Assembly (NCBI GenBank): GCA_963753595.1
Contig: CAVWCX010000007.1
Location: 64,001 to 128,000, forward strand
DNA: 64,000 nucleotides
DNA from: Candidatus Methanoperedenaceae archaeon
Lineage (GTDB): Archaea > Halobacteriota > Methanosarcinia > Methanosarcinales > Methanoperedenaceae
Reading direction: 5' to 3'
Positions 34,132 to 61,661 of this stretch are shown piece after piece (within the stretch, counting starts at the first letter, position 1; each line of letters starts with the position of its first letter). Both the position numbers and the translations under genes were made by a program. Below the pieces are notes generated by a model. It was not told where the DNA came from, did not search any database, and saw only the letters and a list, made by a program, of their open reading frames with translations.

Positions 34132-34241
34132 GCCCAGGTGGCCTAGTTGGTTAGGGCGCCAGACTCATAGGGTAAATTTGAAGAGGCGCTTGAGTCTCCT
34201 GAGAAATCTGGAGGTCACGGGTTCGGATCCCGTCCTGGGCA
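34132..34241 (+). tRNA. tRNA-CAT (probably elongator Met) with a 36-nt intron at 37/38 (34170-34205)
   Basis: GCCCAGG/CCTGGGC acceptor stem, CCAGA/TCTGG anticodon stem, CAT at 34166-34168, GGTTCGGATCC T-arm, and a bulge-helix-bulge (CTCA/TGAG helix, TAG and AAA bulges). Confidence 0.95.
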
Positions 34242-34595
34242 TAATATAAAATGTTTTATTCCTGTCTAATTACGGCTTCAACCATCGGTCAAAAAGCCCG
34301 GATAAAGCCTCGGCTGAGGTGAAAATCAGGGGCCAATAAATGACCCCAGTAATCCAACGGGTATCGAACCCTTCAATTTTATTCGTGGATAAGTTCCACG
34401 CTCAAAACTACTCACCATAGCTAAGAACGGCTTTTGGTCGTCAGCGAATGACGTCGCCGGTTGAACAATATTCAATTGTATTTAATGAAATATAAACTTA
34501 ACTAATTGGTTCTGGAACATATATTCGTTCATTTGAAATTATCGTTCAATCCTCGAATTGTTTTACTTAGTTGAGTGGTTTTTTCCATTCGATAA

Positions 34596-37500
34596 TCATT
34601 CTTCCATATTATCATTGATTAGCCATTGATAATTCGCTCCTATATCATTGATAGGCCCAAAGTGAATTCCCGTGGTATAACCAACAAGATGGTTCTGGCG
34701 TATGATCATCATCTTACCAATGTACCCATGCACTCGTATTCCATCAATATTTAACTCCCCGGTGAGGCCAGTCCGCACAACGCTGGCAAAATTGTTCTGT
34801 ATAATAAGACTATTGCAATTCCCAACGAAGATCCCGTGCCGTTCACGGGTTCCATAAGGTGGCAACAGAACATCTATATTATTGTTTATGATATGCACAA
34901 TCCCTGCACTATCGTGTGTATCGGGAGTTACCCCGCGATGGCTTATGCCAACATGGATACCCTGGATGACTCCTTTTATCCTGTTACTAATAATATTAAC
35001 ATCGCCTGCGCTGCTCCCACCGATAACTATTCCCTGCGATCCTGCTTCCACGTTTAATTTTTCAAGCTCATCATACCATATTTTGAATTGGTCATATTTT
35101 TCTCTATAATTCACATTGAGCAAAACCCGATCAGCGACATGGACCAAATGGAAGAGTAGGTCACGGTCATTTTGAACTCCTTTAGGTTCATTTTTCCTTA
35201 ACCATTCGTTCCATGCATTAACAAGTAATTCGCCTGGTCTGAACTCTACGAAACCATTGCCAGCTTCAATACGAACAACATTTGTATCCTCGAAGACCTT
35301 ATCAGGTTTTCCAAGGTGCGCTGCCGGAATCATCAGGCTTCGAATTGCAGATCTGTATCTTTCGTTCCGTAACAACACATCCAAAGGCAGACTTTCTGGC
35401 ATTTTGCTGACATTTAAAACATTGTCCTCAACATGAGCGCTCTGGACATTAATAAGAAGGATTCCCACCTGCATAAGTCCAATGTGAAGGTCGCAGTTAT
35501 GTATGTGTACGGATTCTACCAGTTTTATCTTTTCATATATGTATAGCTTCTCTGTTTTCTTATCTTCCATTGCAATGAATTTATCGGTTCTACCATCGCT
35601 GATTATTACGGATACCTCTGTTTTGGCTTGATTAAGTTCTAAAGAAATAGTAATTGTTTCAAAATATACTGTTATTTTATTTATACCAATTTTATTAATT
35701 TTTTCCATATCTTCATTAATACTATATTTTTTCTGTAGAAATTCCACGAATTCTTTACCATCGACTCCTGGAATAGCATACCAGCTAAACGAATCCCTTT
35801 TTTCATGGGGATCATAATCAACGGCATCTCGAACATTGATGCATGAAGCCGCTCTTTCAGTACCTGCAGCACAAGTAAGCTCAACATCCTTGATTGTAAC
35901 CTTAGGGCATGCACAAAAGGTAAGTGTTCCATTCAGGGAGTTCAATTTTATTTTCTTGTCAAAGCCGGCAACTCCGCTTTCACCACACATGTCTTTGATC
36001 ACGACGCTTTTACATTCTTCGAATTGGAATATTGTTTCGCCCTCGAGTATTTTGATAATTGTACCTGTGCCGCTTCCACTGATCCTGATATGCCCTTTAT
36101 TTTTTAATACAATTGGTTTATAGGTAACAAATTCACCGATCTGGAAGCATATATTTGCATCCTGCTCGTCTTCTATAGTTTTAAATACGTCTTCCCAATC
36201 TTTTCGAGGCTCGATCACATGGGTACATATGCCCTGGCGATCTTTGCATAATTTGTTCAATGCGTCCTGCACTGTTATTATACTAATGTCTTCTTTTAGT
36301 TTTTTGCAAAGATCGTCATTCTTTTCGATCGGAAGGTCATCAGCATTGAATCTACATAGCAGCGCATCGAGAATATCCTTAACCTTTGAATCTGAACTGG
36401 CAGGGATATTTAATAGAGACCTGACCGTTGGATCAGCTGTCCCGTCGCAAGACGGACGGTAAGGGATATCGCTGCTGTCCAGATTCGCAACCAGGTCATC
36501 CAGGGCATTCTGCACCGTATATGGCAGAGACATACCGGAATCGGGAATTTCATTAATATCCTTCCACCGGTCTTCTTGTATTAAGGGATCATATGGAATA
36601 TCACCGCTATCCAGGTTTGCAACGAGGTTATCCAGGGCATCCTGCACCGTATATGGCAGAGACGTACCAGGTTTGGGAATTTCATTAATATCCTTCCACC
36701 GGTCTTCTTGTATTACGGGATTATATGGAATCTCCCCGGCTTCCAGTTCGCACAGGAGGGTATCCAGCACATCCTTAACAGTTGTATTCTCTGCATCATC
36801 TTTTGGCCAACTTTTTATCTTATCTATAAGAAGCTTCTGAACTGTAGGAATATCATTGCTGGTAAGTATATTTGTACAACCAGGCGGTTTATAGGCTACC
36901 TCGCTGGCCACGCTGAGGTTTGCATTGAAACGGATAGGTATATTGACAGATTTATCGCAGGCATCACGCAGCGTTGCCTCCACCTGCTGACCCTGTGTCG
37001 TTTTGTCAAGCACCCACCTGCAGGTTGCGATTCCCTCCTCGTCTGTATAAACATCAATAAAATCTTTCGGCAATCCGACTTTACCCATGATGGTGCCTTT
37101 CCCAATTGTGATCTGGAAACGCACCTTTGCATTCGTTACATATTGTTTTCCATTGGCTACTCCGACCTGTAGATATCCGGGAAGCTCTTCACCTGGCATT
37201 GCCTCCTGCCCGTCGCCGCAGACATGGAAGAAACTGGTAAGCTCTGTCACTGCAGGGAAAAGCCTGCGGCAGTCGCTGAGAAGCTCCCATTTATTATCGC
37301 TATCTTGCTTCAGCACTGCCAGGCGGCAGTAATGGTGCCTTATGCCTTCAGGCGGCTCTGGTTTTGGTTTTTTGGTTTCATCCATTGGCCATTCAATCTT
37401 CTCTGTCGCGGTGCGGGCCGGGATCAGCCAGTAATCTCCAGCCCTGAAGCTTGTCCCTGAGAACTGCACAAATATACCATCTTCAAGCTCGATAGAATCA

Positions 37501-38528
37501 TGCCCTGTGGCAGGCTTTACTGATATGGCATCGCTTCCCATGTCCCAGCGGCGGACCTTTGGGTGTCGCTTCAAATCTCCTGAAACGGCCTGGTTCAGTG
37601 TGATTATGCGCCCTGCTACATCAGGGGACTCGGTAATGTACGTGAGAGTTCCTGCCGGATTATCTGATAATTCCGTGACATCATCCAGCACTTCAACCCA
37701 ATCGTCTGTTTTCAATGAAAGTGTTTTGTCCTTCCCGAGTTGTTTAACTTTCAGTTTGGTAAGCTTGTCATTTGTATCTTTTATAAACTCTTCGATAGCG
37801 AATACAACCGAACCGTTGTCACGCGACCATTTGAACGTTGCATCTTTAAGTTCACCACCCTTATGGATTTCTACGCGATAGAGCTGGTTTTCAAGCCCAC
37901 GGTAGCCCGCGCCCGGAGAAACACTGCATGGGTTTTTACTCGGAGTCACCTTCTTTGTGAAGGCAGTAAGCTGTGCACCACTTCCAGCGGTGATATTTTT
38001 CCATTCTTGTATGATCGGCTTGCAGTCCACCACAGTTGAAACCTTATAATCCTTTAATGGGTTAAGTTTCACCTGCCAGACCGTTTTGGTTCTTGTGGAT
38101 GTATCCGGTCCCCCAAGTGCGACTTCGCGGATCTGTGGGTCTTCTATCGCAGTCATGTGGCGTTGCCATACATCCAGGTATGCCAGGTAAACACCCTCAC
38201 CGGGCAAATTGGAGAAACCAGGCAGATCATCCTGATCTAAGATATTGATATCTATGGAATTCTCACACAGGATTCCATCTACGTAGATTCTTCCCTCAGA
38301 TATTGTCAGGTTTTCTTTATCAGACGTAGGGTCTATCTTGAATCCACCGCCATCTTGCGGCGCACCGCATGGTCCAATGATATCGAGTGCTTCTTTCTCG
38401 ATTCGGTATGAATTTATATCGTTCTGTTCATTCCAGTCGGCATCAAGCTGGACGCGCCCCTGCTGCATGCGGACACTGCTATAATTTTTTTCAGGTTTAA
38501 ATGTGGATCGTGTAAAATCGCCTTTCAT
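34596..38528 (-). CDS. DUF6519-domain eCIS protein, putative fibre
   Basis: MKGDFTR...MQQGRVQLDADWNE, YRGLENQLYRVEIH, FKWSRDNGSV, GDYWLIPAR; C-terminal beta-helix-like region; GGAGGT RBS before ATG 38528. Confidence 0.85.
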   Translation of the reverse strand: MKGDFTRSTFKPEKNYSSVRMQQGRVQLDADWNEQNDINSYRIEKEALDIIGPCGAPQDGGGFKIDPTSDKENLTISEGRIYVDGILCENSIDINILDQDDLPGFSNLPGEGVYLAYLDVWQRHMTAIEDPQIREVALGGPDTSTRTKTVWQVKLNPLKDYKVSTVVDCKPIIQEWKNITAGSGAQLTAFTKKVTPSKNPCSVSPGAGYRGLENQLYRVEIHKGGELKDATFKWSRDNGSVVFAIEEFIKDTNDKLTKLKVKQLGKDKTLSLKTDDWVEVLDDVTELSDNPAGTLTYITESPDVAGRIITLNQAVSGDLKRHPKVRRWDMGSDAISVKPATGHDSIELEDGIFVQFSGTSFRAGDYWLIPARTATEKIEWPMDETKKPKPEPPEGIRHHYCRLAVLKQDSDNKWELLSDCRRLFPAVTELTSFFHVCGDGQEAMPGEELPGYLQVGVANGKQYVTNAKVRFQITIGKGTIMGKVGLPKDFIDVYTDEEGIATCRWVLDKTTQGQQVEATLRDACDKSVNIPIRFNANLSVASEVAYKPPGCTNILTSNDIPTVQKLLIDKIKSWPKDDAENTTVKDVLDTLLCELEAGEIPYNPVIQEDRWKDINEIPKPGTSLPYTVQDALDNLVANLDSGDIPYDPLIQEDRWKDINEIPDSGMSLPYTVQNALDDLVANLDSSDIPYRPSCDGTADPTVRSLLNIPASSDSKVKDILDALLCRFNADDLPIEKNDDLCKKLKEDISIITVQDALNKLCKDRQGICTHVIEPRKDWEDVFKTIEDEQDANICFQIGEFVTYKPIVLKNKGHIRISGSGTGTIIKILEGETIFQFEECKSVVIKDMCGESGVAGFDKKIKLNSLNGTLTFCACPKVTIKDVELTCAAGTERAASCINVRDAVDYDPHEKRDSFSWYAIPGVDGKEFVEFLQKKYSINEDMEKINKIGINKITVYFETITISLELNQAKTEVSVIISDGRTDKFIAMEDKKTEKLYIYEKIKLVESVHIHNCDLHIGLMQVGILLINVQSAHVEDNVLNVSKMPESLPLDVLLRNERYRSAIRSLMIPAAHLGKPDKVFEDTNVVRIEAGNGFVEFRPGELLVNAWNEWLRKNEPKGVQNDRDLLFHLVHVADRVLLNVNYREKYDQFKIWYDELEKLNVEAGSQGIVIGGSSAGDVNIISNRIKGVIQGIHVGISHRGVTPDTHDSAGIVHIINNNIDVLLPPYGTRERHGIFVGNCNSLIIQNNFASVVRTGLTGELNIDGIRVHGYIGKMMIIRQNHLVGYTTGIHFGPINDIGANYQWLINDNMEE
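36460..36733 (-). repeat. 132-bp (44-aa) tandem repeat in the DUF6519 gene
   Basis: IPY(N/D)P.IQEDRWKDINEIP...SLPYTVQ.ALD.LVANLDS occurs twice. Confidence 0.85.
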
Positions 38529-38547
38529 ATAATTACCTCCTTTTTTA

Positions 38548-40686
38548 TCAAGTGACATAAAATATACCAGCCTCAAGTCCGACGCGCATGTATTCCTCAA
38601 GGCTTGCGCGCAGGTTTGCCTCCCGCTGTGGCTGTTGTAAATGGTGGAATACACCCATCTCTGCCTCATCTTGTGCCCCCTCCCGGATCTCTACAGGGCA
38701 TTGCAAATATAACTGGGCATAACCGGGGTGACCGTAACCCAGGTCTGTAAAGATTGGTTTCAGCCGTACCGCTATTTCATTTTCAATTTGATTCCTTATC
38801 TTCTCCTCAAGTTCTTTCTGTTCTTGAGGCGTCATTCCCGATTTCTTCTTCAGTGCAGCATCAAGCTCTTTTTTTACGGCGTTCTGTATTGCAGTATCAG
38901 AGTTCTTTATTACAGTATCAGGCTGGCAGCGGTACTGGCGTGGAACCTTTGATCCTTTCGGGAAATAACTGAAACGCATACATCCTTCCTGGTTTCTATC
39001 TGCAATCACTTCTCCTGTAAAAATGCTGTTGCTGCCGAGCTTGAAGGACTGTACCGAAACGTTGCCAAGGACGGTGCTCTCTTCTATGACAACCGAAGGA
39101 CCTTTAATTGCAGAACCGCCTAACCCGTCTATAATACTGTCCTTGATAGATAAACGGTATGTACCTTCAAGATTAAGGCTCCCTGTAATAGACCGGTTGA
39201 CTGTAACATCAAGATGTAAATTTCCCTTGAGCGATTCCTTTCCCACAGATTTGGGAGTGGAATCAATATAAAGGTCAATCCCGGGTACCAGGGTGGAATG
39301 CAGCACTTGCAGAGACCCCAGGTCGCCGTCAAGGATATTTATATTGCCACCTGTGATTAGTAATCCGTCGATTATCATCTGACCGCCAGGCTGGTCTTTT
39401 TTAGCTTTATCCCCTTTGATGGTGAGAGTGCCAGCCAGGCGAATGATCGGACGCTCTCCATTGTCTGCCCTGATTTCAAGCGTTATGCCTGCTGGTATGT
39501 TAAACTCAAGTTTTGTATCTTCTTTAAATATATTGCTGTCTTTTATGGAAAATACTGCATCCGGGCGTTGATCTGCCTCCCAGGAAGAGATTGCATCTTT
39601 AATAGTATTTATAAACCCCGGTGATTTAGCGATATTATACTGCTTAATACCTGCATTGGTCTGCCTTATGCCTGTACGGCGGTCGTAAAAACCACCGCCT
39701 ACCTCGCTGCTAAAGCCGTAATAATATGTGACCTGAACATCTGATGGTGGAACCGCGTATGAAAAAGCTATTCGTCCAAGGACCGGATCAACTGCGACCA
39801 TACCATCCGGCGGCAGGTGTTCCCAACCGCTCAAGTCGCAGGGGACTATCTCATCAGCCGGGATGTCCCTGCCGTCTGCCCTGATATGGATGCTTTTATC
39901 CTTACCATAGTATAATTCCTTAGAGGTATAAAAAGCCCGGCGGCGTATCGGGGAAGGTACGTTTACCTCCCCGGCAAGATGGGTGGGGTTTTGTTCTGTC
40001 ACCGGATGGTTGAAAAGCTGGATATCATTGCCAAGCTGGCTGAAACTGAACCGCCCTTTACTGTGCAAAAACGCCGGTGCCTCTCTCACCGGGTATGCCT
40101 GCAAGCGCCACAAATATATGCCGATATTCATGATGTTGTATTTTCCCCTCCTGTTCTCAATATGGCGGACTTCGGCTGTATGGGCGACAGTATCAAAAGG
40201 AGTATCAAGAAGCTCTAATTTTTCACCATCGCGTATATCAGGCGAACGGTGATTATCCAACCGTATGTGATTGATATATTGCGTGGTCCCGAGCAGTTTG
40301 AAGAACTCAACTACCCTTGCATCCCATCCTGTTGTATCATGCGCCAGTTGCTCAAGCATCGAGGCTGTGCCTTTACGCCTGCGGTAACCCAGTGTATTTG
40401 CGACCCGGGCGCGCTGGCTGAACGTAGCTTTTTCGCTGATGGGATGAAGGTTCCTCACGCCCAGCAGGTTACCAATGTAGGGTACGACCCACTCGTCGCA
40501 GGTTTCTATGAACCAGTTATCGTAGAGCCGGGCAATATCCTCATCCATCACATCAGCCTGCTGTGCGAGGACTTCCATGAATGCCTTCAGGACTTCTCCA
40601 TTCTCTGAAACTTCTCCGTTCTCTGAATCACGGATCCTGTAGATTGCGGGCAATAACTGGTAAAGTTTATCTGCGCTGTAGCTCAA
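38548..40686 (-). CDS. eCIS baseplate wedge / tail protein I-like
   Basis: LYQLLPAIYRIRD, FIETCDEWVVPYIG.LLG, RRRKGT and VDPVLGRI motifs. Confidence 0.8.
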   Translation of the reverse strand: MSYSADKLYQLLPAIYRIRDSENGEVSENGEVLKAFMEVLAQQADVMDEDIARLYDNWFIETCDEWVVPYIGNLLGVRNLHPISEKATFSQRARVANTLGYRRRKGTASMLEQLAHDTTGWDARVVEFFKLLGTTQYINHIRLDNHRSPDIRDGEKLELLDTPFDTVAHTAEVRHIENRRGKYNIMNIGIYLWRLQAYPVREAPAFLHSKGRFSFSQLGNDIQLFNHPVTEQNPTHLAGEVNVPSPIRRRAFYTSKELYYGKDKSIHIRADGRDIPADEIVPCDLSGWEHLPPDGMVAVDPVLGRIAFSYAVPPSDVQVTYYYGFSSEVGGGFYDRRTGIRQTNAGIKQYNIAKSPGFINTIKDAISSWEADQRPDAVFSIKDSNIFKEDTKLEFNIPAGITLEIRADNGERPIIRLAGTLTIKGDKAKKDQPGGQMIIDGLLITGGNINILDGDLGSLQVLHSTLVPGIDLYIDSTPKSVGKESLKGNLHLDVTVNRSITGSLNLEGTYRLSIKDSIIDGLGGSAIKGPSVVIEESTVLGNVSVQSFKLGSNSIFTGEVIADRNQEGCMRFSYFPKGSKVPRQYRCQPDTVIKNSDTAIQNAVKKELDAALKKKSGMTPQEQKELEEKIRNQIENEIAVRLKPIFTDLGYGHPGYAQLYLQCPVEIREGAQDEAEMGVFHHLQQPQREANLRASLEEYMRVGLEAGIFYVT

Positions 40687-49473: not shown

Positions 49474-50121
49474 TTATAAACCTCCTAATAGTGAAGACGA
49501 TGCTGAAATATTGCCGACGCTGCCTATGGTTGCCATTACTTCTTTGGCTACCTGGTGCGCCATGAACAGCGAGCCGCCAAAGCTTTTCATTCCCAGGTCC
49601 TGGTAATTAAGTACGCGCAGGGTCAGTTTGACTTTGGCATGTATGGGATTCAATTTAGGGTCGAAACTTTCTTCGGTGATGACGAACTGGGTAATACGCA
49701 CAGGAAGAACCCGCTTTACTCCCCACGCGAATAAGGTCAGCGGCGCCTCAGGCGGCATTATTTCGATAACGCCAAGAGAGGACAATACTTCATTGGCAAT
49801 AACCAGCGCAGACTTTGGATACAGCAGCATTTCAAGCGACGCCAGCGCAGGATAGATGCCCATTGAAGTGGCAGTGCTTTCTGCCTTCTCAAGCTGGTCT
49901 GCGGCATCAATGACAAGGTCAAGAGTAATGTCTTCTTCAGGCGGGCCGTTCAGGCGCAGTGCTTCGCCCTTATTCGTACCTCCGGTAGCCTGCATCTTAA
50001 GTGTACGTGAAAGCGTTACAGGATTATACTGGAACACTACCACGCTTGCCAGCGGGTTTATCGGGTCAAGCCCGATCAAGGCACCTTTTTGCAGGCGCGG
50101 GGATCCGGGGAATGTGGTCAT
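49474..50121 (-). CDS. eCIS tube-initiator-like protein (Afp7 N-terminal part)
   Basis: FQYNP, WG.KRVLPVRIT and EESFDPKLNPI motifs; upstream of LysM. Confidence 0.75.
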   Translation of the reverse strand: MTTFPGSPRLQKGALIGLDPINPLASVVVFQYNPVTLSRTLKMQATGGTNKGEALRLNGPPEEDITLDLVIDAADQLEKAESTATSMGIYPALASLEMLLYPKSALVIANEVLSSLGVIEIMPPEAPLTLFAWGVKRVLPVRITQFVITEESFDPKLNPIHAKVKLTLRVLNYQDLGMKSFGGSLFMAHQVAKEVMATIGSVGNISASSSLLGGL

Positions 50122-50234
50122 GGTTGGGTACTCCTTTTTGTGATTTTATTAAAATGTTCGTAAAAATTTCATCAGTCGTTATCATATTTACCATTGTTTG
50201 GTGCATGGAATGCACCTACCTCGCTACAATGGCC

Positions 50235-52865: not shown

Positions 52866-53128
52866 CGTTTCAATCCCCCATAAACTGCCCTTCCCGTCTT
52901 TGCTCCGATCACTTCTGCACTAGAATCTGATGTGATCTTGAACTCCATGCCGTTAAGTCCCTCAATCCTGCCTCCCCGTTCCAGCGATGGCGGCACTCCC
53001 TGCTCTGTAAACAACCGGGATAACTCGCGTTCAACAGCCTCCCCTATACTCCGGGAGTCACTTCCTGCAAAGCCGTCCAGTACAAGTTCTTCAATATTAA
53101 GTTCAATATTCTTTGGTCTCATACCCAT
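52862..53128 (-). CDS. Small conserved eCIS protein
   Basis: IELNIEELVLDGF...AVERELSRL; overlaps both neighbours. Confidence 0.75.
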   Translation of the reverse strand: MGMRPKNIELNIEELVLDGFAGSDSRSIGEAVERELSRLFTEQGVPPSLERGGRIEGLNGMEFKITSDSSAEVIGAKTGRAVYGGLKR

Positions 53129-56384: not shown

Positions 56385-57643
56385 CCATTATACTGTTTCA
56401 GGTAATCATCAAGGGAGAGAATCGGGCGCTGCTTTGGAGGAGGAGACTGCAACTGCGGTGCCTGAGGTGGTGTTACTGCCTTAACTTCTATACGGCCGAT
56501 GGTTACTTTTACAATCGGTACTGTTGAAGGCGGTCTTGGTGCAACAGCATGCTGATCAATTAACATATTCCCCTTCTGCTCCAGGGTTGCATTGACATTC
56601 GGTTTATTCATTCGATCAGGATTTTGCCTGCTGGCAATTAGTGAAGGTGTATCAAGATGCGGATAATCAGCCCGATAGAAATCGGTCCCGGATGCAGGCT
56701 CACTATTCTGCAGGATATCCCCACCGTTCTTCATGCTTGAGAAACTTTCATGTAGCAGGCTGGAATCCGATATGTGCCCAATGAGCGTCTTAGCAACAGG
56801 GTTATCTTCAATATCTATCAAAGGCTCGTTTTGCCAAGTCTCGCCTGTGTTTTTGCTGCCTGGGTGTTTGCCGGCAGATAAATTCTCATAAGGTAATTCC
56901 GGATATCTTGTAATATTATTCTCATAAGGCAATTCCGGATATCTTGTAATATTAGTTCGGTTGTTATTTCGGTTCTTTTGTATACCCACCGGATGCGAGG
57001 GCTTAGACACCTCTAAAGAACCGGTTTCAGGGTTTTGAGGCGGTTCTTTATCAAAAATCGGATTCATCATCGAAATAGTTTTCCTGTTTTCACGGGCATC
57101 AGCAAAATCCTTATGCTCCGGTTCAACATGCACCTGAGAATCCGGTCCAGGGGAGTGAAACTGCTTTTCATATTTGACATATCCTGAAGTATCGGAATCA
57201 ACCTGGTGAAGAAGTCCTTTATCATGAGCCAGCTCAGGAATACCGTTTTGATTAAGCAGCTCAATATTATGCGGCAGCCTCGATATAGAAGTTAAGTCTT
57301 CCGGGCTTCCCCGGCCCTCTATCTGATAAGAGTGTTTCGCACCATCCTTGTCCCGGGAACCGGATTCAACATACTGAACTGGAACATGCTGGTTATCAGG
57401 AATTTTATTTAATGACTTTTTCTGTGTTGGCTGACCATTATGTTGAGACTTAATTCCGGTTTCCGGGGCACTTTCGATATATATACTTTCCTGATTGCTC
57501 ACTTGTTCACTATCACTGGCTAAATCCTGTATGTAATCACTCTCTCTCGCAGGCATCGGAGCAAATACAGAACCGATTACAGGCCGGGCTACAGGCATCA
57601 AACCATACGCCCGTTCTACTAATCTTGAGAGAAAATCAGGCAT
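56381..57643 (-). CDS. eCIS hypothetical protein with disordered centre
   Basis: Conserved-looking ends (FLSRL; VKVTIGRIEVKA...LSLDDYL) flanking polar low-complexity sequence. Confidence 0.7.
   Translation of the reverse strand: MPDFLSRLVERAYGLMPVARPVIGSVFAPMPARESDYIQDLASDSEQVSNQESIYIESAPETGIKSQHNGQPTQKKSLNKIPDNQHVPVQYVESGSRDKDGAKHSYQIEGRGSPEDLTSISRLPHNIELLNQNGIPELAHDKGLLHQVDSDTSGYVKYEKQFHSPGPDSQVHVEPEHKDFADARENRKTISMMNPIFDKEPPQNPETGSLEVSKPSHPVGIQKNRNNNRTNITRYPELPYENNITRYPELPYENLSAGKHPGSKNTGETWQNEPLIDIEDNPVAKTLIGHISDSSLLHESFSSMKNGGDILQNSEPASGTDFYRADYPHLDTPSLIASRQNPDRMNKPNVNATLEQKGNMLIDQHAVAPRPPSTVPIVKVTIGRIEVKAVTPPQAPQLQSPPPKQRPILSLDDYLKQYNG
56882..56953 (-). repeat. 36-bp tandem duplication (NITRYPELPYEN x2)
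   Basis: Two units differing at one base. Confidence 0.9.
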
Positions 57644-58368
57644 CAGGTCACCATCCCGAGGTAAAACTGGCGCCGGGTATCACTCATCGACAGGATATCC
57701 GATTCACGCCAGCCATATGCCTGGGCAAGCGCATGGACATCATATAGCAATCGTCTGGCATGTGCGCTGAGTTCCGACCAGAAATAGGACACGATATCAA
57801 AAACCATCTGCCACTGATGGCCGCATTCGGGGCAATGGAGATCCAGCATGATCTCTGCCTGGGGATCGTGTTCTGCCATATGTGCTGAAAGTTCAGCCTT
57901 GACATGTGCGGATATGTCGCAGCAACCCACAGGAACCCCATCGCGAATAACCTGAAGCACACAGCGCTGTACCAGCAGGTCACTTGCTGTATCCCTTAAT
58001 CCTGCAACAGCAGCAAGGTCCAGGCTGTTTGGCAAGCGATACCTTAACACGAGATTCCCATTTGTAAGCTCCAGTTCCTGTTTATTTCCAGGTAGGGGCG
58101 ATAGGCGAATATCTGTTGTCTTTATGGTGAACTCCAGACGCTCCTTACATCCCGGACATTCGGCAAAACAGTTAAGTTTTGGGCCAAAGGTCAGTTCCCT
58201 GAGCGCCAGGAGGTATGAGTCCCGCTGCCCAATACTCAACTCAGCCAGTTTATCCCTGGTCATGCCAGGGATCACGGCAAGAAGTAAGGTCAGAGCTTTG
58301 TCCATATGATGCTGGACTTGCCCCTGCTCCCATACCTTCAGAATATCGGGCGCGAACAATGGACGCAT
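57643..58368 (-). CDS. Zn-binding baseplate/tail assembly chaperone-like protein
   Basis: CPGC and CPEC motifs, RLPNSLDL, and C-terminal VHALAQAYGWRESDIL. Confidence 0.75.
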   Translation of the reverse strand: MRPLFAPDILKVWEQGQVQHHMDKALTLLLAVIPGMTRDKLAELSIGQRDSYLLALRELTFGPKLNCFAECPGCKERLEFTIKTTDIRLSPLPGNKQELELTNGNLVLRYRLPNSLDLAAVAGLRDTASDLLVQRCVLQVIRDGVPVGCCDISAHVKAELSAHMAEHDPQAEIMLDLHCPECGHQWQMVFDIVSYFWSELSAHARRLLYDVHALAQAYGWRESDILSMSDTRRQFYLGMVT

Positions 58369-58371
58369 TGT

Positions 58372-58896
58372 TTAGCTCGGTTCCAGATATGTCGGTTCTT
58401 GGGGTTCAGCCACTTCATAATCCCGTTCCCAGCCTTCGTTCTCAAGTTTAATTGTCTGTATAGCTACAGCATTTGTGCTGGCATCCAGCCCGGGCAGAGC
58501 CTGGAATTCGGAAACCCAGCAGCGATACACTTTATAAGCTATTGCGAGTTGTCCTGCCTCGTTGTAGACTTCGATTATAATGTCTTTTCGGAAGTCCTTG
58601 AGCGAGACCTCACTTCCCAATCCCGACCCATAGTTCCAGACTTTATTTGTCCACTGTTCGAATTCTTTGTCATGGGTGACACCGCGCTCCAGGGTTATGG
58701 CATCGTACTTGGTCTGCCCTGGTGATTTTCTCTCTGTGCTTGGGTCGCCTCCCTCCCGGTAGGTCACGGGAGTGTTAGTGCGCTTCAGGGCGCCAACCTT
58801 GTTTACCCCGGCTACGTAACGGCCATCCCACTTAACCCGGAACTTGAAACTCTTATACGGATCGAAACGCTGTGCATTTACACTAAACTGTGCCAT
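58372..58896 (-). CDS. Tail tube protein (T4 gp19/Afp1-like)
   Basis: DPYKSFKFRV, YREGG, ITLERG and FRKDI motifs. Confidence 0.93.
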   Translation of the reverse strand: MAQFSVNAQRFDPYKSFKFRVKWDGRYVAGVNKVGALKRTNTPVTYREGGDPSTERKSPGQTKYDAITLERGVTHDKEFEQWTNKVWNYGSGLGSEVSLKDFRKDIIIEVYNEAGQLAIAYKVYRCWVSEFQALPGLDASTNAVAIQTIKLENEGWERDYEVAEPQEPTYLEPS

Positions 58897-58908
58897 ATTT
58901 TTTCCTCC

Positions 58909-61173
58909 TTATGTCTGTATGTTACCGGCTATTTGCTGAATCTGGATGATTACAAACTCTGCCGGTTTAAGCGGGGCAAAACCCACCACGATGTTGACAA
59001 TACCTTTGTTGATATCATCCTGAGTTGTTGTCTCTTTATCGCATTTTACGAAGTACGCCTCTTTTGGCGTTTGTCCCTGGAAAGCGCCCTGGCGGAAGAG
59101 CGAGTGCATGAAAGCCCCCAGATTCAGGCGGATCTGTGACCAGAGGGGCTCATCGTTTGGCTCGAACACCACCCATTTTGTGCCCCTGAACAGGCTTTCC
59201 TCAATGAAAAGAGCCAGCCGTCGTATAGGGATATACTTGTACTCCGATGCCATCTGGTCCGCACCGCGCAATGTACGGGCGCCCCAGGCAACTGCGCCGA
59301 AGACCGGAAAGATGCGTATACAGTTGGAGCCGAGTGGGTTAAGCGTCCCGTTCTCCATATCGGTTAATTGATATTTAACGTCCTTTACTCCAACCAACGT
59401 GGCATCCGTGCCTGCAGGAGCTTTCCATACCCCGCGTGAGCTGTCCATACGTGCATACAACCCCGCGACCGTGCCGCTTGGCGGGCATAAACGTACTTTG
59501 CCACCCTTTAATGGGTCAGCTATCCCGATCCATGGGTAGTAGACTGCTGCATGATCCGATTTCGGAAGTGCCGTGCCTGAGATAACACTGACCATTTCTG
59601 TTGGATTCTTCGTAATAAGGGGTGCATCGATAATCATGAATGCACGCCGCTCCTGGCAATATGAGACGGCATCAGCCAAAATACCGCTGTCAGTGACCCC
59701 TGGAAGGCAGAGCAGGTTGAATATATCAACCTCTTCCAGGGCGTAGATACCATCGCGGTCTGCCCGGCTGGCAATGTATATATTATACGCCTCGGCATCG
59801 GTAAAGGATTCTTCATTACCGTCCGCCAGTGTTAAATTCGTCGCATTTGTTCCACCTAATAGAAGTTTTAATCCTTTAGCCAGACCGTCACCCGTGACCT
59901 CATTAACCATTACTGTTGAACCTGTCCCCGTGCTTCCTGAAGACAGTATCAATTTTGATGCAGAGGAAACGGTACAGGTGAAATTCATGTAACTGGGATT
60001 GGATGTTTTAAGTGCACATACACTAGTCTGGATACGCTTTGCTATATCCTGCAGGTTAGCTGCTGATGTTGTACTTATATCAACTGCATCAGGACCGTAG
60101 CCGTCTATGCTTATGTAGAAGCTTCGGTTGCCGAGACTGGGCAGCCCAGGAGGTCCGGTCAGATCAGTGGCACTCAATACGCCGCTGGTCAGAGTTCCAT
60201 GATCAGGGACTTCCACAGGTCTGATCACCGAAACTGCATCAGTCTCTTGTCCACCATTTACGGTTCCAAGCTTTAACCTGCCTGCAGCATCGTTTCGTAT
60301 GCCTGCTAGCACACGCACACTGGATGCCTCTTTCCCTTCGCCTGAAGTCATTATAATACGATTTTTATCTGTATTGGGGACACAAGTAAATAGGGACTGG
60401 GCGGGATTTCCATTAGCTATACCCGCATCCCTCACTTTCTTCTGGATCGCACTGCAGAGCTTGGTTAGCTTGGCAGCCGGATCCCCTGCTACATCAGTCG
60501 GCAGGGTGATTTGCACGCTTATAGGTTCTGAGCGATTGACCGATATAAGCAACTGGTTGTGAGTAGCATCCAGTAATGGTTTACTCAGTGTTGGATCCAG
60601 ATCACCGATTTCGCCGCTTATGCTTGTTCCATTGCCCAGGCCCGCCAGATCATGAACCCGTTCAACTTCTACCAACCGCGAAGCACCCTTCAAAATGTCA
60701 CCAACGTAACGCGCATCTTTACTGTTCATCGAGAGATCAAGATACGTCTCATCGCCAACAGCGAGGTTGAATGTACTGGCAGGATTAGCGGTTTTGTAAT
60801 CTACCCGAACTTCAATATCATTACCTGTTTTACCCTCGTCCAGGGCTGTTATCTTAAGCACATCTTTACCGGTACTGTTTTGCAGAGTTTTTGTGGCTGC
60901 AACTGCATTCTTAGCTACTCTCACAACCCAGGCATCGCTTCCGCCGTTGGAAAAAAACTGGCGCACTGCATAGCTCATCTCCGAATCCTCAAATAAACCT
61001 CCAAAACGGCGTTCAAAGTCGCTGTAGCTCAGGATATGGATCGCTTTATTTATCGGACCTCTCTTAGCTGATCCGGCAAAGGCTGTTACCGAGGTGCTGA
61101 CCCCCACAATAGTCCGCACACCACTGGGAATTTCCTGGACATATACTCCTGGATAGGTTGGATTAATTGGCAT
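58909..61173 (-). CDS. Contractile tail sheath protein
   Basis: YPGVYVQE, AVYYPW, GVWKAPAG, WGARTL, WVVFEPND and FAPLKPAEF motifs. Confidence 0.96.
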   Translation of the reverse strand: MPINPTYPGVYVQEIPSGVRTIVGVSTSVTAFAGSAKRGPINKAIHILSYSDFERRFGGLFEDSEMSYAVRQFFSNGGSDAWVVRVAKNAVAATKTLQNSTGKDVLKITALDEGKTGNDIEVRVDYKTANPASTFNLAVGDETYLDLSMNSKDARYVGDILKGASRLVEVERVHDLAGLGNGTSISGEIGDLDPTLSKPLLDATHNQLLISVNRSEPISVQITLPTDVAGDPAAKLTKLCSAIQKKVRDAGIANGNPAQSLFTCVPNTDKNRIIMTSGEGKEASSVRVLAGIRNDAAGRLKLGTVNGGQETDAVSVIRPVEVPDHGTLTSGVLSATDLTGPPGLPSLGNRSFYISIDGYGPDAVDISTTSAANLQDIAKRIQTSVCALKTSNPSYMNFTCTVSSASKLILSSGSTGTGSTVMVNEVTGDGLAKGLKLLLGGTNATNLTLADGNEESFTDAEAYNIYIASRADRDGIYALEEVDIFNLLCLPGVTDSGILADAVSYCQERRAFMIIDAPLITKNPTEMVSVISGTALPKSDHAAVYYPWIGIADPLKGGKVRLCPPSGTVAGLYARMDSSRGVWKAPAGTDATLVGVKDVKYQLTDMENGTLNPLGSNCIRIFPVFGAVAWGARTLRGADQMASEYKYIPIRRLALFIEESLFRGTKWVVFEPNDEPLWSQIRLNLGAFMHSLFRQGAFQGQTPKEAYFVKCDKETTTQDDINKGIVNIVVGFAPLKPAEFVIIQIQQIAGNIQT

Positions 61174-61186
61174 TTCAAATCCTCCT

Positions 61187-61300
61187 CTATATTATAGCAT
61201 CCGGTTCATTTTTGTCTTCAACTGTCATTGTTCGGATTGCCGGAATTCCCAGCATTCCAGGGACGTTGATATACAGCGCCCATTTCATCATTTTCTTCAT
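61187..61300 (-). CDS. 37-aa small ORF upstream of the sheath gene
   Basis: MKKMMKWALYINVPGMLGIPAIRTMTVEDKNEPDAII with GGAGGT RBS. Confidence 0.4.
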   Translation of the reverse strand: MKKMMKWALYINVPGMLGIPAIRTMTVEDKNEPDAII

Positions 61301-61343
61301 ATTTTTACCTCCGTTTGATAATCCATAGAATTTCTATTCTGTT

Positions 61344-61661
61344 TCAAAGTCTTTTAAACGCCTCAAGTAGTATCTCGCGATCTGACAAAATCCCCCTCGA
61401 CTTCAACCGGTCAACCTCCAGGAGAAGTTTCTCAGCATCCTGGCTATCAAGTTTATTCTTTTCAGCAAATCTCTTTGTCAATACTTTCAGTTCTATTCTG
61501 GAAGAATACTTCTTGGGAATCGTATCATCAATAAAATTGAATATATGCCCGCATTTATGATGCCCTATCGTTGAAGTTGACGGACCTGCGGAAGTTCTTA
61601 TGTAATCCCTGAAAGTATCACCTTTGATAATCTCTCCACACTCGCATATTAACGTTTTAAC
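61344..61661 (-). CDS. Zn-ribbon-like hypothetical protein, start uncertain
   Basis: Open frame (V)KTLICECGEII...GHHKCGHIF...LEAFKRL with no in-frame canonical start; missed by the ORF track. Confidence 0.65.
   Translation of the reverse strand, partial: VKTLICECGEIIKGDTFRDYIRTSAGPSTSTIGHHKCGHIFNFIDDTIPKKYSSRIELKVLTKRFAEKNKLDSQDAEKLLLEVDRLKSRGILSDREILLEAFKRL

What the first reader, a model, noticed from the sequence alone, without database searches (positions are those of the whole stretch)
34132..61661. Complete contractile injection system in a methane-cycling archaeon, abutting a tRNA
Seen: a ~27-kb single-strand operon with sheath, tube, chaperone, DUF4255, AAA ATPase, DUF4157 effector, initiator/LysM, hub, spike, PAAR-like tip, gp25, two baseplate-J proteins, wedge and DUF6519 fibre. 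It has no head, packaging or replication genes and no T6SS membrane complex. It ends ~350 bp from the tRNA 3' end, and core genes look more GC-rich by eye than the flanks. Known: DUF4255 plus an Afp15-type ATPase define eCIS; archaeal loci have been predicted computationally, but I know of no functional characterisation in this lineage. Inference: a horizontally acquired nanomachine, since adapted by the host, acting on consortium neighbours, grazers or the cell itself.
Basis: partly seen in the sequence, partly recalled or inferred. Interest (0 to 1): 0.85.

Follow-up and report, generated by a model that had tools for sequence, protein, structure and literature searches.

The report
Injection machine in a methane archaeon
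A complete phage-tail-like injection machine sits as a foreign-looking gene island in a methane-oxidising archaeon; such clusters are already reported for these archaea, but none has been tested and this one appears to carry a DNA-cutting toxin.

Summary
Eighteen tightly packed minus-strand genes (34596-61173) encode a full contractile injection system (CIS): sheath, tube, gp51-like protein, long DUF4255 cap, AAA+ ATPase, DUF4157 protein, tube initiator, LysM-like protein, split VgrG, PAAR-like tip, gp25, two baseplate-J proteins, P2-I-like wedge and DUF6519 fibre. It ends 354 nt from an intron-bearing tRNA. No capsid, terminase or canonical T6SS genes were found in the genome, and no integrase on this contig.

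The host carries mcrA and is most likely Ca. Methanoperedens. The cluster is the most GC-rich 26.6-kb stretch of the genome. In 7 of 7 close relatives, synteny breaks exactly at the tRNA 3' end and none has a CIS there.

The ATPase groups with other Methanosarcinales clusters inside a bacterial radiation. The sheath groups with Acidobacteriota and Smithellaceae instead, so the cluster is mosaic.

The DUF4157 protein ends in a variable domain related to AHH (HNH/EndoVII) nuclease toxins.

The kind is already published: PLTS/eCIS clusters in all ANME groups, including Methanoperedens. It is a new member of a known kind. Expression, target and mode of firing (released or cell-bound) remain untested.

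The parts
34132..34241 (+). tRNA gene with a 36-nt intron. The anticodon is CAU if the intron sits at the canonical 37/38 position. It marks the synteny breakpoint on the left side of the island.
   Evidence: Rfam RF00005, 58.5 bits, E 4.7e-10. Default ARAGORN found nothing. Homology to 7 of 7 relatives ends at window 34242-34243.
34596..38669 (-). DUF6519 (eBAP5-type) tail-fibre protein, 1357 aa, with an internal 2 x 132-nt repeat.
   Evidence: PF20129 1.4e-69. DUF6519 is described as the eCIS fibre baseplate-attachment domain eBAP5 in PMC12923769 (passages read).
38548..40686 (-). Afp12-like wedge / P2 gpI-like baseplate protein, 712 aa.
   Evidence: PF09684 1.2e-4 (22.4 bits, just over its 20.6-bit cut-off), PF10076 2.1e-5 (below its cut-off), TIGR02242 0.0032. 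The matches are weak; the position in the operon fits.
40683..43757 (-). Second baseplate-J (Afp11/Cis11) paralogue, 1024 aa, with an inserted PA14 carbohydrate-binding domain.
   Evidence: TIGR02243 7.2e-63 (over its cut-off) and PF07691 PA14 8.6e-30.
43754..46696 (-). First baseplate-J (Afp11/Cis11) paralogue, 980 aa.
   Evidence: TIGR02243 5e-92 and PF04865 2.6e-8. Best PDB hit is 9gtp_1K, 5.3e-14.
46697..47056 (-). gp25-like baseplate wedge protein (Afp9), 119 aa.
   Evidence: PF04965 1.2e-17.
47053..47376 (-). PAAR-like spike tip (DUF4280), 107 aa.
   Evidence: PF14107 3.4e-5, 24.8 bits against a cut-off of 26.3. Position directly after the spike gene.
47373..48023 (-). Spike half of a split VgrG (gp5-like OB fold plus beta-helix), 216 aa, with 3 x 75-nt tandem repeats.
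   Evidence: PF04717 9.2e-24; the NF033848 VgrG_rel match covers profile positions 377-543 of 547.
48020..49156 (-). Hub half of the split VgrG (gp27-like), 378 aa.
   Evidence: The NF033848 match covers profile positions 15-339 of 547 (1.3e-9); PF05954 6.8e-5, below its cut-off. 82% identical to the L025 homologue.
49166..49468 (-). LysM-like small protein, 100 aa. It looks like the LysM half of a split Afp7/Cis7.
   Evidence: No Pfam hit even at E up to 1. A profile of 10 homologues aligns to the C-terminal LysM part of the Haloferax larsenii CIS LysM protein (hhalign E 1.7e-4, probability 49%). The same profile hits 9gtp_P 'LysM domain-containing protein' at E 0.046.
49474..50121 (-). Tube-initiator-like protein (CIS_tube fold), 215 aa.
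   Evidence: PF19266 9.3e-5, 22.7 bits against a cut-off of 27. Conserved in 23 of 81 related loci; many of the others are cut off before this gene.
50235..52865 (-). Candidate cargo protein, 876 aa. It has an N-terminal Cys-rich stretch, a DUF4157/eCIS_core domain with HExxH at residue 188, a Gly-rich hydrophobic middle part (residues 437-466 look like a membrane helix), a Pro-rich linker, and a C-terminal AHH-like HNH/EndoVII nuclease domain (about residues 745-876).
   Evidence: PF13699 7.3e-31. Motif and hydrophobicity. C-terminal domain: Pfam AHH E 0.017, below cut-off. ESM Atlas features 0.93-0.91 to Tox-GHH2, AHH, Tox-SHH and Pyocin_S clusters. 53 homologues were found; of the 31 long ones, 22 carry eCIS_core and 11 hit AHH (best 2.7e-8).
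52862..53128 (-). Conserved 88-aa protein of unknown role.
   Evidence: No family. Homologues sit in the same position in archaeal and bacterial clusters (24 of 81 loci).
53119..55131 (-). Afp15/Cis15-type AAA+ ATPase with an N-terminal winged-helix domain, 670 aa.
   Evidence: PF00004 4.2e-28 and PF22977 6e-21. Tree.
55128..56384 (-). Long-form DUF4255/Pvc16 tail terminator (cap), 418 aa, with a C-terminal extension of about 220 aa that has no family.
   Evidence: PF14065 6.8e-47 over residues 12-199. The extension gives only chance-level Pfam hits. There is one copy in the genome.
56381..57643 (-). Variable, low-complexity 420-aa protein with a 2 x 36-nt repeat. Possibly the tape measure, by position only.
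   Evidence: No family. The ESM Atlas finds only unnamed bacterial clusters, 0.90. Only short end segments are conserved in relatives.
57643..58368 (-). PF12322 'T4 baseplate protein'-like protein, 241 aa, with two CxxC pairs.
   Evidence: PF12322 7e-15, over its cut-off. No PDB relative. Sequence.
58372..58896 (-). Inner tube protein (gp19 / Afp1-5 / Cis1), 174 aa.
   Evidence: PF06841 4.9e-44 and TIGR02241 8.4e-43.
58909..61173 (-). Sheath protein, 754 aa, with a large inserted outer domain (about residues 126-470).
   Evidence: PF04984 and PF17482. 18 distinct PDB sequences match at E up to 0.001; the best is 9ezm_A at 1.3e-80.
61187..61300 (-). 37-aa ORF just upstream of the sheath gene. 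Possibly a conserved leader peptide or small protein.
   Evidence: ORF. A peptide with a similar ...A-I-x-x-x-T-V-E-D motif lies in the same place in L015 (read by eye). Not tested further.
61347..61670 (-). Small Cys/His (zinc-ribbon-like) protein linked to the cluster. In this genome its ATG is out of frame by one base.
   Evidence: A 65%-identical homologue lies directly upstream of the sheath gene in the Methanoperedens locus L015. No family.

Best explanation
This is an intact gene cluster of 18 genes (plus 1-2 small linked ORFs) for a lineage-II contractile injection system. Other names for this kind are PLTS and 'eCIS-like'. It lies in a methane-oxidising archaeon, most likely Ca. Methanoperedens (ANME-2d), and is carried as an accessory, horizontally exchanged island.

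How it most likely works; these steps are inferred from the families present, not shown here:
1. The split VgrG hub and spike, capped by a PAAR-like protein, nucleate a baseplate. The baseplate is built from gp25, two baseplate-J paralogues and a P2-I-like wedge. It carries a DUF6519 fibre and a PA14 sugar-binding domain for surface binding.
2. A tube initiator and a LysM-like protein start the gp19 tube and the sheath, which polymerise up to the long DUF4255 cap.
3. The AAA+ ATPase helps assembly or cargo loading.
4. Sheath contraction drives the spike and tube through a neighbouring cell's envelope.
5. The delivered cargo is the DUF4157 protein, whose variable C-terminal domain is an AHH-like (HNH/EndoVII) nuclease.

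The likeliest role is antagonism or policing of neighbouring microbes. Whether the particle fires after release (extracellular) or while held at the cell membrane (T6SS-like) is undecided; I put it at about even odds.
For: Shown here:
- Eight of the nine core parts match their families above the curated cut-offs, and the ORFs are open and of the same lengths as their homologues. The ninth, the tube initiator/LysM pair (Afp7), matches only below cut-off.
- Tight operon structure on one strand.
- Only one cap gene in the genome.
- No HK97 capsid, no TerL, no VipB/TssC and no IcmF/TssM in the genome, which is 92% complete.
- No integrase on contig C7; 7 matches, all elsewhere.

Host:
- mcrA is present and a methanofuran biosynthesis gene lies in the flank.
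- The nearest clusters are in named Ca. Methanoperedens MAGs (sheath 81% and 75%). The flank of one of them matches this genome at 70-76% nucleotide identity.

Mobility:
- Highest GC of 1029 windows. GC3 is 0.482 against 0.401 for genome ORFs.
- Both flanks lie on one contig, 20.7 kb apart, in relative G004, with unrelated genes between them.
- Homology of 7 of 7 relatives stops at the tRNA 3' end.
- The long-cap type is in 6 of 49 genus genomes, at no more than 62% identity.
- In L009 and L036 the cluster sits next to genes that lie on contig C26 in this genome.
- In the ATPase tree, 5 archaeal rows lie inside a bacterial radiation (inner 4-row clade 99*, 5-row clade 93).
- The sheath tree groups the window with L015 and L009, then Acidobacteriota and Smithellaceae. 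An AU test rejects the 5 archaeal rows as one clade (p 4e-77).

Cargo. None of the 81 related loci has the same C-terminal domain, as expected for polymorphic cargo. The pattern of N-terminal DUF4157, long linker and C-terminal toxin is described in PMC8213781 (passages read).
Against: - There is no expression evidence. No RNA run holds the stretch.
- The cargo's own AHH score is below Pfam's cut-off (15.6 against 22.3 bits).
- The AlphaFold model (pLDDT 82.9) found no nuclease fold: Foldseek gave 0 matches at E up to 1e-3, and VIA-align's best Z was 3.9.
- No immunity gene is evident next to the toxin gene.
- No tape measure is identified.
- No lysis or release genes and no membrane-anchor gene are in the cluster, so neither mode of firing has positive support.
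- The small upstream zinc-ribbon-like gene appears frameshifted at its start.
- The GC excess is shared by the same cluster in 8 of 9 other hosts by at least 0.024, so part of it is intrinsic and not a sign of recent arrival.
- Public contigs did not bridge the left junction, so contig continuity rests on synteny with G004 only.
Confidence: 0.78

Rival explanations
1. The system acts on the producer itself. It would be a cytoplasmic CIS, like that of Streptomyces, that fires inside the cell under stress and causes regulated cell death or a developmental switch, rather than attacking neighbours.
For: The second- and third-best solved sheath relatives after 9ezm are 8bky and 8bl4 (1e-76 and 6e-74). 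8bky is the cytoplasmic CIS sheath of S. coelicolor, as named in PMC11566945 section 6. The best solved baseplate-J relative is 9gtp, which shares its sheath sequence with 8bky. No release or anchor genes are in the cluster. The cargo has a hydrophobic glycine-rich segment that could insert into the cell's own membrane.
Against: The large fibre (DUF6519) and the PA14 sugar-binding domain suggest recognition of an outside surface. The cargo domain is polymorphic between close relatives, as in inter-cell toxins. Sequence similarity to the Streptomyces system is confined to conserved cores.
Confidence: 0.12
2. The cluster is a silent relic. It would be a defective prophage tail module or a decaying island that no longer makes particles.
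For: The small upstream gene has an out-of-frame start. No expression data exist. Phage sheaths are detectable relatives (366 phage records match, the best 37.6% over 52% of the query).
Against: All 18 ORFs are open and full length against homologues. DUF4255 cap, AAA+ ATPase and DUF4157 together are the markers that separate CIS from phage tails (PMC6899500 and PMC8213781, passages read). No capsid or terminase is in the genome. The gene order is the same as in many bacterial and archaeal clusters.
Confidence: 0.06
3. The cluster does not belong to this archaeon. It would be a bacterial fragment joined into the contig by mis-assembly or mis-binning.
For: GC jumps at both edges. The sheath is 60-65% identical to bacterial ones. 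No listed public contig bridges 34242-34596, and loose ends occur at 34242 and 34256 in two runs.
Against: Both flanks are neighbours on one contig in relative G004, so two independent false joins would be needed. The nearest clusters by ATPase, tube, hub and cap are archaeal, and two sit in independently assembled Methanoperedens MAGs, one of them on a 164-kb scaffold. The long-cap type is found in 5 other genomes of the genus. The runs laid hold relatives only 90-95% alike, so their loose ends reflect strain differences.
Confidence: 0.04

Closest known systems
PLTS / eCIS-like clusters reported in ANME archaea and Ca. Methanoperedens (Chadwick 2022, PMC9012536; Echeveste Medrano 2025, PMC12246660; Shi 2026, PMC13444090; ANME-3: PMC12180501). 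Passages read for all four.
   Same: The same kind of cluster in the same group of organisms: sheath, baseplate, AAA+ ATPase, LysM-type protein, VgrG and PAAR. It was noted in all ANME groups, in two distinct versions within ANME-2d, with a phylogeny that departs from the core genome. This fits the long-cap and short-cap types that I find in the genus.
   Different: Those papers give no locus-level analysis that I could see. Their supplements were closed and may hold more. I cannot say whether this very locus is in their figures.
Haloarchaeal T6SS-like CIS of Halogeometricum borinquense (Zachs 2024, PMC11566945; PDB 9ezm). It was compared here through the Haloferax larsenii plasmid cluster (L105).
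   Same: It is archaeal and of lineage II. It has a split VgrG, two baseplate-J genes, PAAR, a DUF4255 cap, an AAA+ ATPase and DUF4157 proteins. It is the best solved relative of the sheath (1.3e-80).
   Different: Only 25-42% identical, and only in core genes. Its non-core genes have no homologue in this genome. Its membrane-bound mode and killing are shown experimentally; nothing is shown here.
Bacterial clusters of the same sub-lineage (Smithellaceae, Desulfogranum japonicum DSM 18378, Acidobacteriota, Chloroflexota, cyanobacteria and others; loci L010-L088).
   Same: The same gene order from sheath to hub. Identities are tube 80-83%, sheath 60-65%, ATPase 48-59% and initiator 50-63%. They share the long cap form.
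   Different: Bacterial hosts. The DUF4157 cargo tails and the variable 420-aa gene differ. None of these clusters is characterised, as far as the papers I read show.
Afp / PVC (lineage I eCIS of Serratia and Photorhabdus), with the solved structures 6rao and 6j0b.
   Same: The same superfamily and the same core parts.
   Different: Distant: sheath E 1e-44 to 2e-49, tube 1.4e-4. They have a single VgrG and a single Afp11, a recognisable tape measure and adenovirus-like fibres (PMC6899500).
Streptomyces cytoplasmic CIS (8bky, 9gtp) and the Anabaena thylakoid-anchored tCIS (7b5h).
   Same: Lineage II. Sheath 1e-76 to 8bky; tube 1.2e-12 to 7b5h; baseplate-J 5.3e-14 to 9gtp.
   Different: By the gene-content rules read in PMC6899500, subtype IId has a single Afp11 and an unsplit VgrG. 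That the Streptomyces system is IId is my recollection, not from a call. Both systems work inside the cell. The similarity is limited to the cores.

Membership tests
CIS / eCIS superfamily (core set of Chen 2019, PMC6899500) | Sheath (Afp2-4) and tube (Afp1/5) | tested here: met
   PF04984, PF17482, PF06841 and TIGR02241, all over their cut-offs.
CIS / eCIS superfamily (core set of Chen 2019, PMC6899500) | DUF4255/Pvc16 cap together with an Afp15-type AAA+ ATPase in the same operon | tested here: met
   PF14065 6.8e-47 and PF00004 4.2e-28, in adjacent genes.
CIS / eCIS superfamily (core set of Chen 2019, PMC6899500) | Spike (Afp8), gp25 (Afp9) and baseplate-J (Afp11) | tested here: met
   PF04717, PF04965, TIGR02243 twice, and NF033848 split over two ORFs.
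CIS / eCIS superfamily (core set of Chen 2019, PMC6899500) | Afp7-type tube initiator with LysM | tested here: inconclusive
   CIS_tube 9.3e-5, below its cut-off. LysM-like only by hhalign E 1.7e-4, probability 49%, and a PDB profile hit at E 0.046.
CIS / eCIS superfamily (core set of Chen 2019, PMC6899500) | Not a prophage: no capsid or terminase linked | tested here: met
   PF05065 and PF03354: 0 matches in the own genome, which is 92% complete. The window flanks hold housekeeping genes. Portal and other capsid families were not searched.
Extracellular CIS in the strict sense (particle released from the cell) | Release into the medium and action as a free particle | not testable with these tools
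   No lysis genes and no anchor genes were recognised. This needs microscopy or fractionation.
Chen 2019 subtype IIa (or IIc) | Two afp11 copies, afp8 split into gp27 and gp5 ORFs, PAAR present. For IIa also divergent afp12 and afp13. | tested here: met
   The rule was read in PMC6899500. By these rules the P2-I-like wedge and the DUF6519 fibre favour IIa.
Chen 2019 subtype IIa (or IIc) | Placement on the Afp11 reference tree with dbeCIS members | not tested
   No dbeCIS reference sequences were in hand. The one haloarchaeal (IIa) cluster compared is only 22-31% identical in Afp11.
Haloarchaeal T6SS-like CIS (Zachs 2024) | Conserved membrane protein (Hbor_38620 type) beside the cluster and docking to the membrane | not testable with these tools
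   The Hbor_38620 sequence was not in hand. No protein in the cluster has a clear membrane-helix profile except one segment inside the DUF4157 protein. The non-core ORFs of the H. larsenii cluster have no homologue in this genome.
Canonical T6SS | TssC/VipB sheath and the TssM (IcmF) membrane complex | tested here: not met
   PF05943 and PF06761: 0 matches in the own genome. The control genome E. coli was found in both searches.
AHH nuclease family (PF14412, HNH/EndoVII superfamily), for the cargo's C-terminal domain | Profile match over the curated cut-off | tested here: inconclusive
   This protein: E 0.017, 15.6 bits against a cut-off of 22.3, covering profile positions 18-109 of 111. Of 31 long homologues of the domain, 11 match AHH at E up to 1e-3 (best 2.7e-8). 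The ESM Atlas points to AHH, Tox-GHH2 and Tox-SHH.
AHH nuclease family (PF14412, HNH/EndoVII superfamily), for the cargo's C-terminal domain | Conserved histidine pairs and a beta-beta-alpha-metal fold | tested here: inconclusive
   The HH at domain positions 112-113 is invariant, and the 'DHHI' motif at 55-58 is conserved in most of 20 sequences. The structure searches gave no significant match. That these histidines are the catalytic ones is recalled, not tested.

The most novel reading that the evidence does not exclude
Methanoperedens uses this machine to inject a DUF4157-linked AHH-type nuclease into bacteria or archaea living beside it. The machine itself would be assembled from modules traded across the domain boundary with anaerobic bacteria of the same habitats: the sheath is of the Acidobacteriota/Smithellaceae type, while the ATPase, tube and hub are of a Methanosarcinales type. 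If so, this would be the first effector-level, testable model of how a methane-oxidising archaeon attacks or polices its neighbours, and an example of archaea and bacteria sharing interchangeable weapon parts.
Probability: 0.3. Interest if true: 0.65.

Novelty: new member of a known kind. Interest (0 to 1): 0.4.

Why it matters
Anaerobic methane oxidisers control methane release and live in dense mixed communities, yet how they fight or manage their neighbours is unknown. Authors of the only functional study of an archaeal CIS name methanogens and ANME as the unexplored case (PMC11566945, discussion passage read).

This locus is complete and has clear borders. It carries a concrete candidate toxin (an AHH-like nuclease) and candidate binding parts (a DUF6519 fibre and a PA14 domain). 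It would therefore be a good template for expression, imaging and toxin assays.

The existence of such clusters in these archaea is not new.

Tried and rejected
- Empty-site test. I looked for a relative with the tRNA directly next to UPF0146. EPSP synthase was found in 44 of 49 genus genomes and UPF0146 in 47 of 49. Apart from G000, both lie on one contig only in G004 (20.7 kb apart) and G010 (121 kb apart). No clean empty site exists among those searched. The genus is heavily rearranged.
- Integration signature. No direct repeat of 13 nt or longer of the tRNA occurs anywhere in 34301-64000, and no 12-mer either. The one 11-mer is inside a CIS gene. The repeat finder gave only short matches that look like chance. 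No integrase is on C7.
- Expression. No RNA holder is listed for window 52000-61700, so nothing can be said about expression.
- Read support for the left junction. Four DNA runs, kept as Logan contigs, were laid on 28001-48000. They hold relatives, mostly 90-95% alike. None of the pieces listed bridges 34242-34596, and 698 further pieces were not shown. Depth differences between flank and cluster are not used, as the tool advises.
- Fold of the cargo's C-terminal domain. Foldseek against the PDB gave 0 of 148 matches at E up to 1e-3. VIA-align against 48,161 chains gave 0 at Z 5 or more, best 3.9. This is uninformative; it does not show a new fold.
- Solved relatives. None was found for the cap or for the PF12322-like protein.
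- The 420-aa ORF. No family in Pfam or NCBIfam, and only unnamed clusters in the ESM Atlas. 'Tape measure' is a guess from its position.
- Plasmid and phage collections. The best plasmid places cover 79% of the sheath or less, at under 60% identity. The best phage is Bacillus phage BCD7, 37.6% over 52% of the query. No close mobile carrier was found.
- GC as proof of recent transfer. Rejected as decisive.
- Supplements of the cited papers were closed. Chadwick's S3 Data (transcription) and Fig 17, and Shi's Supplementary Fig. 23, may bear on expression and on whether this locus type is already drawn.
- Complex prediction, PHROGs and PADLOC were not used.

Full report
**What is there**

Between 34596 and 61173 the minus strand carries 18 back-to-back ORFs. 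By my count from those coordinates, 11 of 17 junctions overlap and the widest gap is 113 nt, so it reads as one operon.

Pfam and NCBIfam name these genes, in order of transcription:
- sheath (754 aa);
- gp19-type tube;
- a PF12322 'T4 baseplate'-like protein with two CxxC pairs;
- a 420-aa low-complexity protein without a family;
- a long (418 aa) DUF4255/Pvc16 cap;
- an AAA+ ATPase with a winged-helix domain;
- a conserved 88-aa protein;
- an 876-aa DUF4157/eCIS_core protein;
- a CIS_tube-like initiator (below cut-off);
- a 100-aa protein;
- a VgrG split into a gp27-like hub and a gp5-like spike;
- a DUF4280 PAAR-like tip (just below cut-off);
- gp25;
- two TIGR02243 baseplate-J paralogues, the second with a PA14 domain;
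- a P2-I/Mu-gp48-like wedge (weak match);
- a 1357-aa DUF6519 fibre.

One correction concerns LysM: no LysM domain is found by Pfam. The 100-aa protein is LysM-like only through a profile comparison with the LysM protein of a haloarchaeal CIS (hhalign E 1.7e-4, probability 49%) and a weak profile hit to the LysM protein of a solved CIS baseplate (E 0.046).

Two small linked ORFs lie upstream of the sheath gene. One is a 37-aa ORF. The other is a Cys/His-rich ORF of about 108 aa, whose 65%-identical homologue sits in the same place in a Methanoperedens MAG. In this genome its ATG is one base out of frame.

**tRNA and composition**

Rfam finds a tRNA at 34132-34241 on the + strand (58.5 bits). 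It is 110 nt long because of a 36-nt intron, which is why default ARAGORN found nothing. With the intron at the canonical position the anticodon reads CAU. ARAGORN with introns allowed proposes Ser(aga) instead, which does not fit the short variable loop. I leave the identity open.

The fibre gene's stop lies 354 nt from the tRNA 3' end.

The cluster has a GC content of 0.480 against 0.405 for the genome. It is the top of 1029 windows of the same length (mean 0.404, sd 0.019); the next-best window that does not overlap it is 0.438. The excess is present at all three codon positions: 0.557/0.403/0.482 against 0.487/0.366/0.401 for 1151 long genome ORFs.

**Host**

The genome is 2.89 Mb in 37 contigs and 92% complete. 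It holds mcrA, on two contigs that duplicate each other. The flank holds a methanofuran biosynthesis gene.

The nearest clusters are in MAGs named Candidatus Methanoperedens (sheath 81% and 75%). The flank of one of these matches this genome at 70-76% nucleotide identity over several kilobases. 'Methane-cycling archaeon' is thus supported. The genus name is an inference.

**Not a prophage, not a canonical T6SS**

- HK97-type capsid and TerL: 0 matches in the genome.
- VipB/TssC and IcmF/TssM: 0 matches.
- Integrases: 7 matches, none on this contig.
- The rest of the window holds housekeeping genes.

The genome is 92% complete, so these are 'not found', not proofs of absence.

**Is it an acquired island?**

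Several lines say it is accessory and mobile.

1. Distribution. The window's cap protein has full-length (long-form) relatives in only 5 of 48 other genomes of the genus, at 44-62% identity. A further 23 genomes have only a short-form cap of another CIS type, at 27-36% identity. EPSP synthase next door is 80-93% identical across 43 of them.

2. Location. In none of the other long-form genomes is the cap on the contig that carries EPSP synthase or UPF0146. In L009 and L036 the cluster abuts genes that lie on contig C26 in this genome.

3. Borders. I fetched the neighbourhoods of both flanking genes from the 7 closest relatives.
   - In 7 of 7, homology to this genome stops at C7:98242-98243, which is window 34242-34243, the base after the tRNA.
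   - On the other side it resumes at window 62442-62534. In G004 a further piece matches 62148-62445.
   - None of the 14 stretches has this CIS beside the flank.
   - In G004 both flanks lie 20.7 kb apart on one contig. Between them are unrelated genes: a GAF/PAS regulator, an old-yellow-enzyme type reductase, an SNF2 helicase with a SWIM protein, a Toprim protein, DUF1616, lipoate ligase and a 2-oxoacid dehydrogenase E1. Part of this segment lies on contig C35 in this genome.
   - So there is no clean empty site. The tRNA 3' end is a hot spot where every relative carries something different.

4. No integration signature. No att-like repeat of the tRNA and no integrase were found. An integrase-mediated insertion is therefore not shown.

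**Trees**

The ATPase tree has 55 rows: the window plus 54 of the 60 loci with an ATPase hit, those aligned over at least 560 residues. It is rooted on the haloarchaeal cluster.
- The window pairs with an uncultured Methanosarcinales cluster (L025, 79% identity; 99*).
- Two Methanoperedens MAGs and one unnamed archaeon join them (inner four-row clade 99*, five-row clade 93).
- This small clade is nested in a wide bacterial radiation (Planctomycetota, Acidobacteriota, Cyanobacteriota, Chloroflexota and others).
- A Methanothrix cluster falls elsewhere.

The sheath tells another story, even in its conserved N- and C-terminal domains.
- Identity to Smithellaceae and Acidobacteriota is 70-82% (N) and 79-80% (C). 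Identity to L025 and L036 is 52-55% (N) and 61-63% (C).
- In a tree of these 409 columns the window groups with L015 and L009, then with Acidobacteriota and Smithellaceae.
- An AU test rejects the five archaeal rows as one clade (lnL difference 306, p 4e-77).

The cluster is therefore mosaic, and the sheath gene has moved between bacterial and archaeal clusters. The direction and timing are not resolved, and the root is not inferred.

**A caution on GC**

In 8 of 9 other hosts of this cluster type, including Smithellaceae, Desulfogranum and Acidobacteriota, the CIS part is richer in GC than the upstream flank by 0.024-0.128. In the ninth the difference is 0.003. Part of the excess thus belongs to the genes themselves. 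It cannot be read simply as recent arrival or as lack of amelioration.

**Cargo**

The DUF4157 protein has five parts:
- a Cys-rich N-terminus;
- the eCIS_core domain, with HExxH at residue 188;
- a glycine-rich hydrophobic middle part (residues 437-466 score as a membrane helix);
- a proline-rich linker;
- a C-terminal domain of about 130 aa.

The evidence that this last domain is a nuclease toxin is as follows.
- It scores below Pfam's cut-off for AHH, an HNH/EndoVII nuclease toxin family (E 0.017).
- The ESM Atlas places it next to Tox-GHH2, AHH, Tox-SHH and Pyocin_S clusters (0.93-0.91).
- An exhaustive HMMER search found 53 relatives, 27 of them at E up to 1e-30.
- Of the 31 long relatives, 22 start with eCIS_core, 11 match AHH (best 2.7e-8) and 4 also carry Ntox1.
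- Histidine pairs are conserved.
- The AlphaFold model is confident (pLDDT 82.9), but two structure searches found nothing significant.
- None of the 81 related loci has this tail. Related clusters share only the first 100-200 residues of the protein.

This is the pattern of DUF4157, linker and variable toxin described by Geller et al. (PMC8213781, passages read). I rate 'nuclease toxin cargo' at about 0.6. No immunity gene is apparent beside it.

**Comparison with known systems**

By the gene-content rules of Chen et al. (PMC6899500, passages read), the cluster is lineage II and fits subtype IIa best. It has two afp11 copies, a split afp8 and a PAAR-like gene, plus an afp12-like wedge and a fibre. 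I did not place it on their reference tree.

Solved relatives are all distant.
- Sheath: best to 9ezm (1.3e-80), which is cited in the haloarchaeal T6SS paper, then to 8bky, the Streptomyces cytoplasmic CIS sheath (PMC11566945 section 6).
- Tube: best to the Anabaena tCIS and AlgoCIS (about 1e-12).
- Baseplate-J: best to 9gtp.
- A haloarchaeal cluster fetched for comparison (Haloferax larsenii plasmid) shares only core genes, at 25-42% identity, and has another layout. Its non-core genes have no homologue here.

The closest characterised systems thus span all three modes of action: released, membrane-bound and cytoplasmic. The sequence gives no lysis gene and no anchor gene to choose between them. 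The large fibre and the PA14 domain, with polymorphic toxin cargo, make an outward-directed weapon the best reading. Whether it fires after release or on contact is about even.

**Prior knowledge**

A full-text search returned 141 papers holding both 'contractile injection system' and 'archaea', and 7 holding 'Methanoperedens' and 'contractile injection'. From the passages I read:
- Chadwick et al. 2022 report PLTS clusters in all ANME groups, two versions within ANME-2d, and transcription in ANME-2c.
- The ANME-3 study calls these clusters horizontally acquired.
- The Lake Cadagno study lists eCIS in all of its Methanoperedens MAGs.
- Shi et al. 2026 note an eCIS-like system on a Methanoperedens jumbo element, with similar regions in the host genomes.
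- Zachs et al. 2024 state that CIS of methanogens and ANME were not explored.

The existence of the system in this lineage is therefore known, and its function is not. Among the passages I read I saw no locus-level border analysis, no sheath/ATPase discordance and no AHH-like cargo. Supplements were closed, so I do not claim these are unpublished.

**Verdict**

This is a well-preserved new member of a known kind. It has three modest additions worth following: a candidate nuclease cargo, a mosaic cluster with a bacterial-type sheath, and a variable hot spot at an intron-bearing tRNA.

Noticed in passing
window 61347-61670 (-): A small Cys/His-rich ORF is linked to the cluster. It has no ATG, GTG or TTG start in frame before residue 64, and the nearby ATG is one base out of frame. 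The L015 orthologue has an in-frame ATG. This is either a frameshift, an assembly error, or an unusual start.
   Followed up: partly
window 61187-61300 (-); L015 about 9860-9995: A 37-aa ORF lies directly upstream of the sheath gene. A peptide with a similar ...A-I-x-x-x-T-V-E-D motif sits at the same place in a Methanoperedens relative. It may be a conserved small protein or leader peptide.
   Followed up: no
window 61830-61978 and 62145-62395: Short dispersed repeats lie between the cluster and UPF0146. Copies at 75-84% identity are on contigs C27, C21, C6, C3 and C22 of the same genome. The second repeat overlaps a 45-aa lysine-rich ORF (62185-62322).
   Followed up: no
G000 contigs C8 (1951-6293) and C34 (1597-5939): The mcrA region is present twice with identical scores. 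One locus of a relative matches both contigs equally. This is probably a redundant contig in the assembly rather than two mcr operons.
   Followed up: no
G046:C67 (locus L099 17018-19999; cap at C67:69892-70338): In relative G046, a CIS of the other (short-cap) type and a 994-aa DUF4157 protein lie 16-43 kb from UPF0146, on the same side where G000 has its cluster. The neighbourhood may attract CIS islands repeatedly.
   Followed up: no
L091 4147-19683 and L092 1-4427 (G004:C7): In place of the CIS, G004 carries an SNF2 helicase with a SWIM zinc-finger protein, a Toprim protein, and a lipoate ligase with 2-oxoacid dehydrogenase genes. The dehydrogenase genes have only weak matches in G000 (31-35%), while the Toprim block lies on C35 in G000.
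   Followed up: partly
window 47438-47662, 36460-36723, 56882-56953: There are in-frame tandem repeats inside CIS genes: 3 x 75 nt in the spike (beta-helix turns), 2 x 132 nt in the fibre, and 2 x 36 nt in the 420-aa variable protein.
   Followed up: no
loci L009-L036: The same CIS cluster type is richer in GC than its upstream flank in 8 of 9 hosts examined, bacteria included. Elevated GC seems to be a property of these genes and not only a mark of transfer.
   Followed up: partly
window 8944-11142 (+): A 732-aa ORF with no Pfam family lies in a locally GC-rich stretch (0.47-0.485) with positive AT skew, unlike its surroundings.
   Followed up: no
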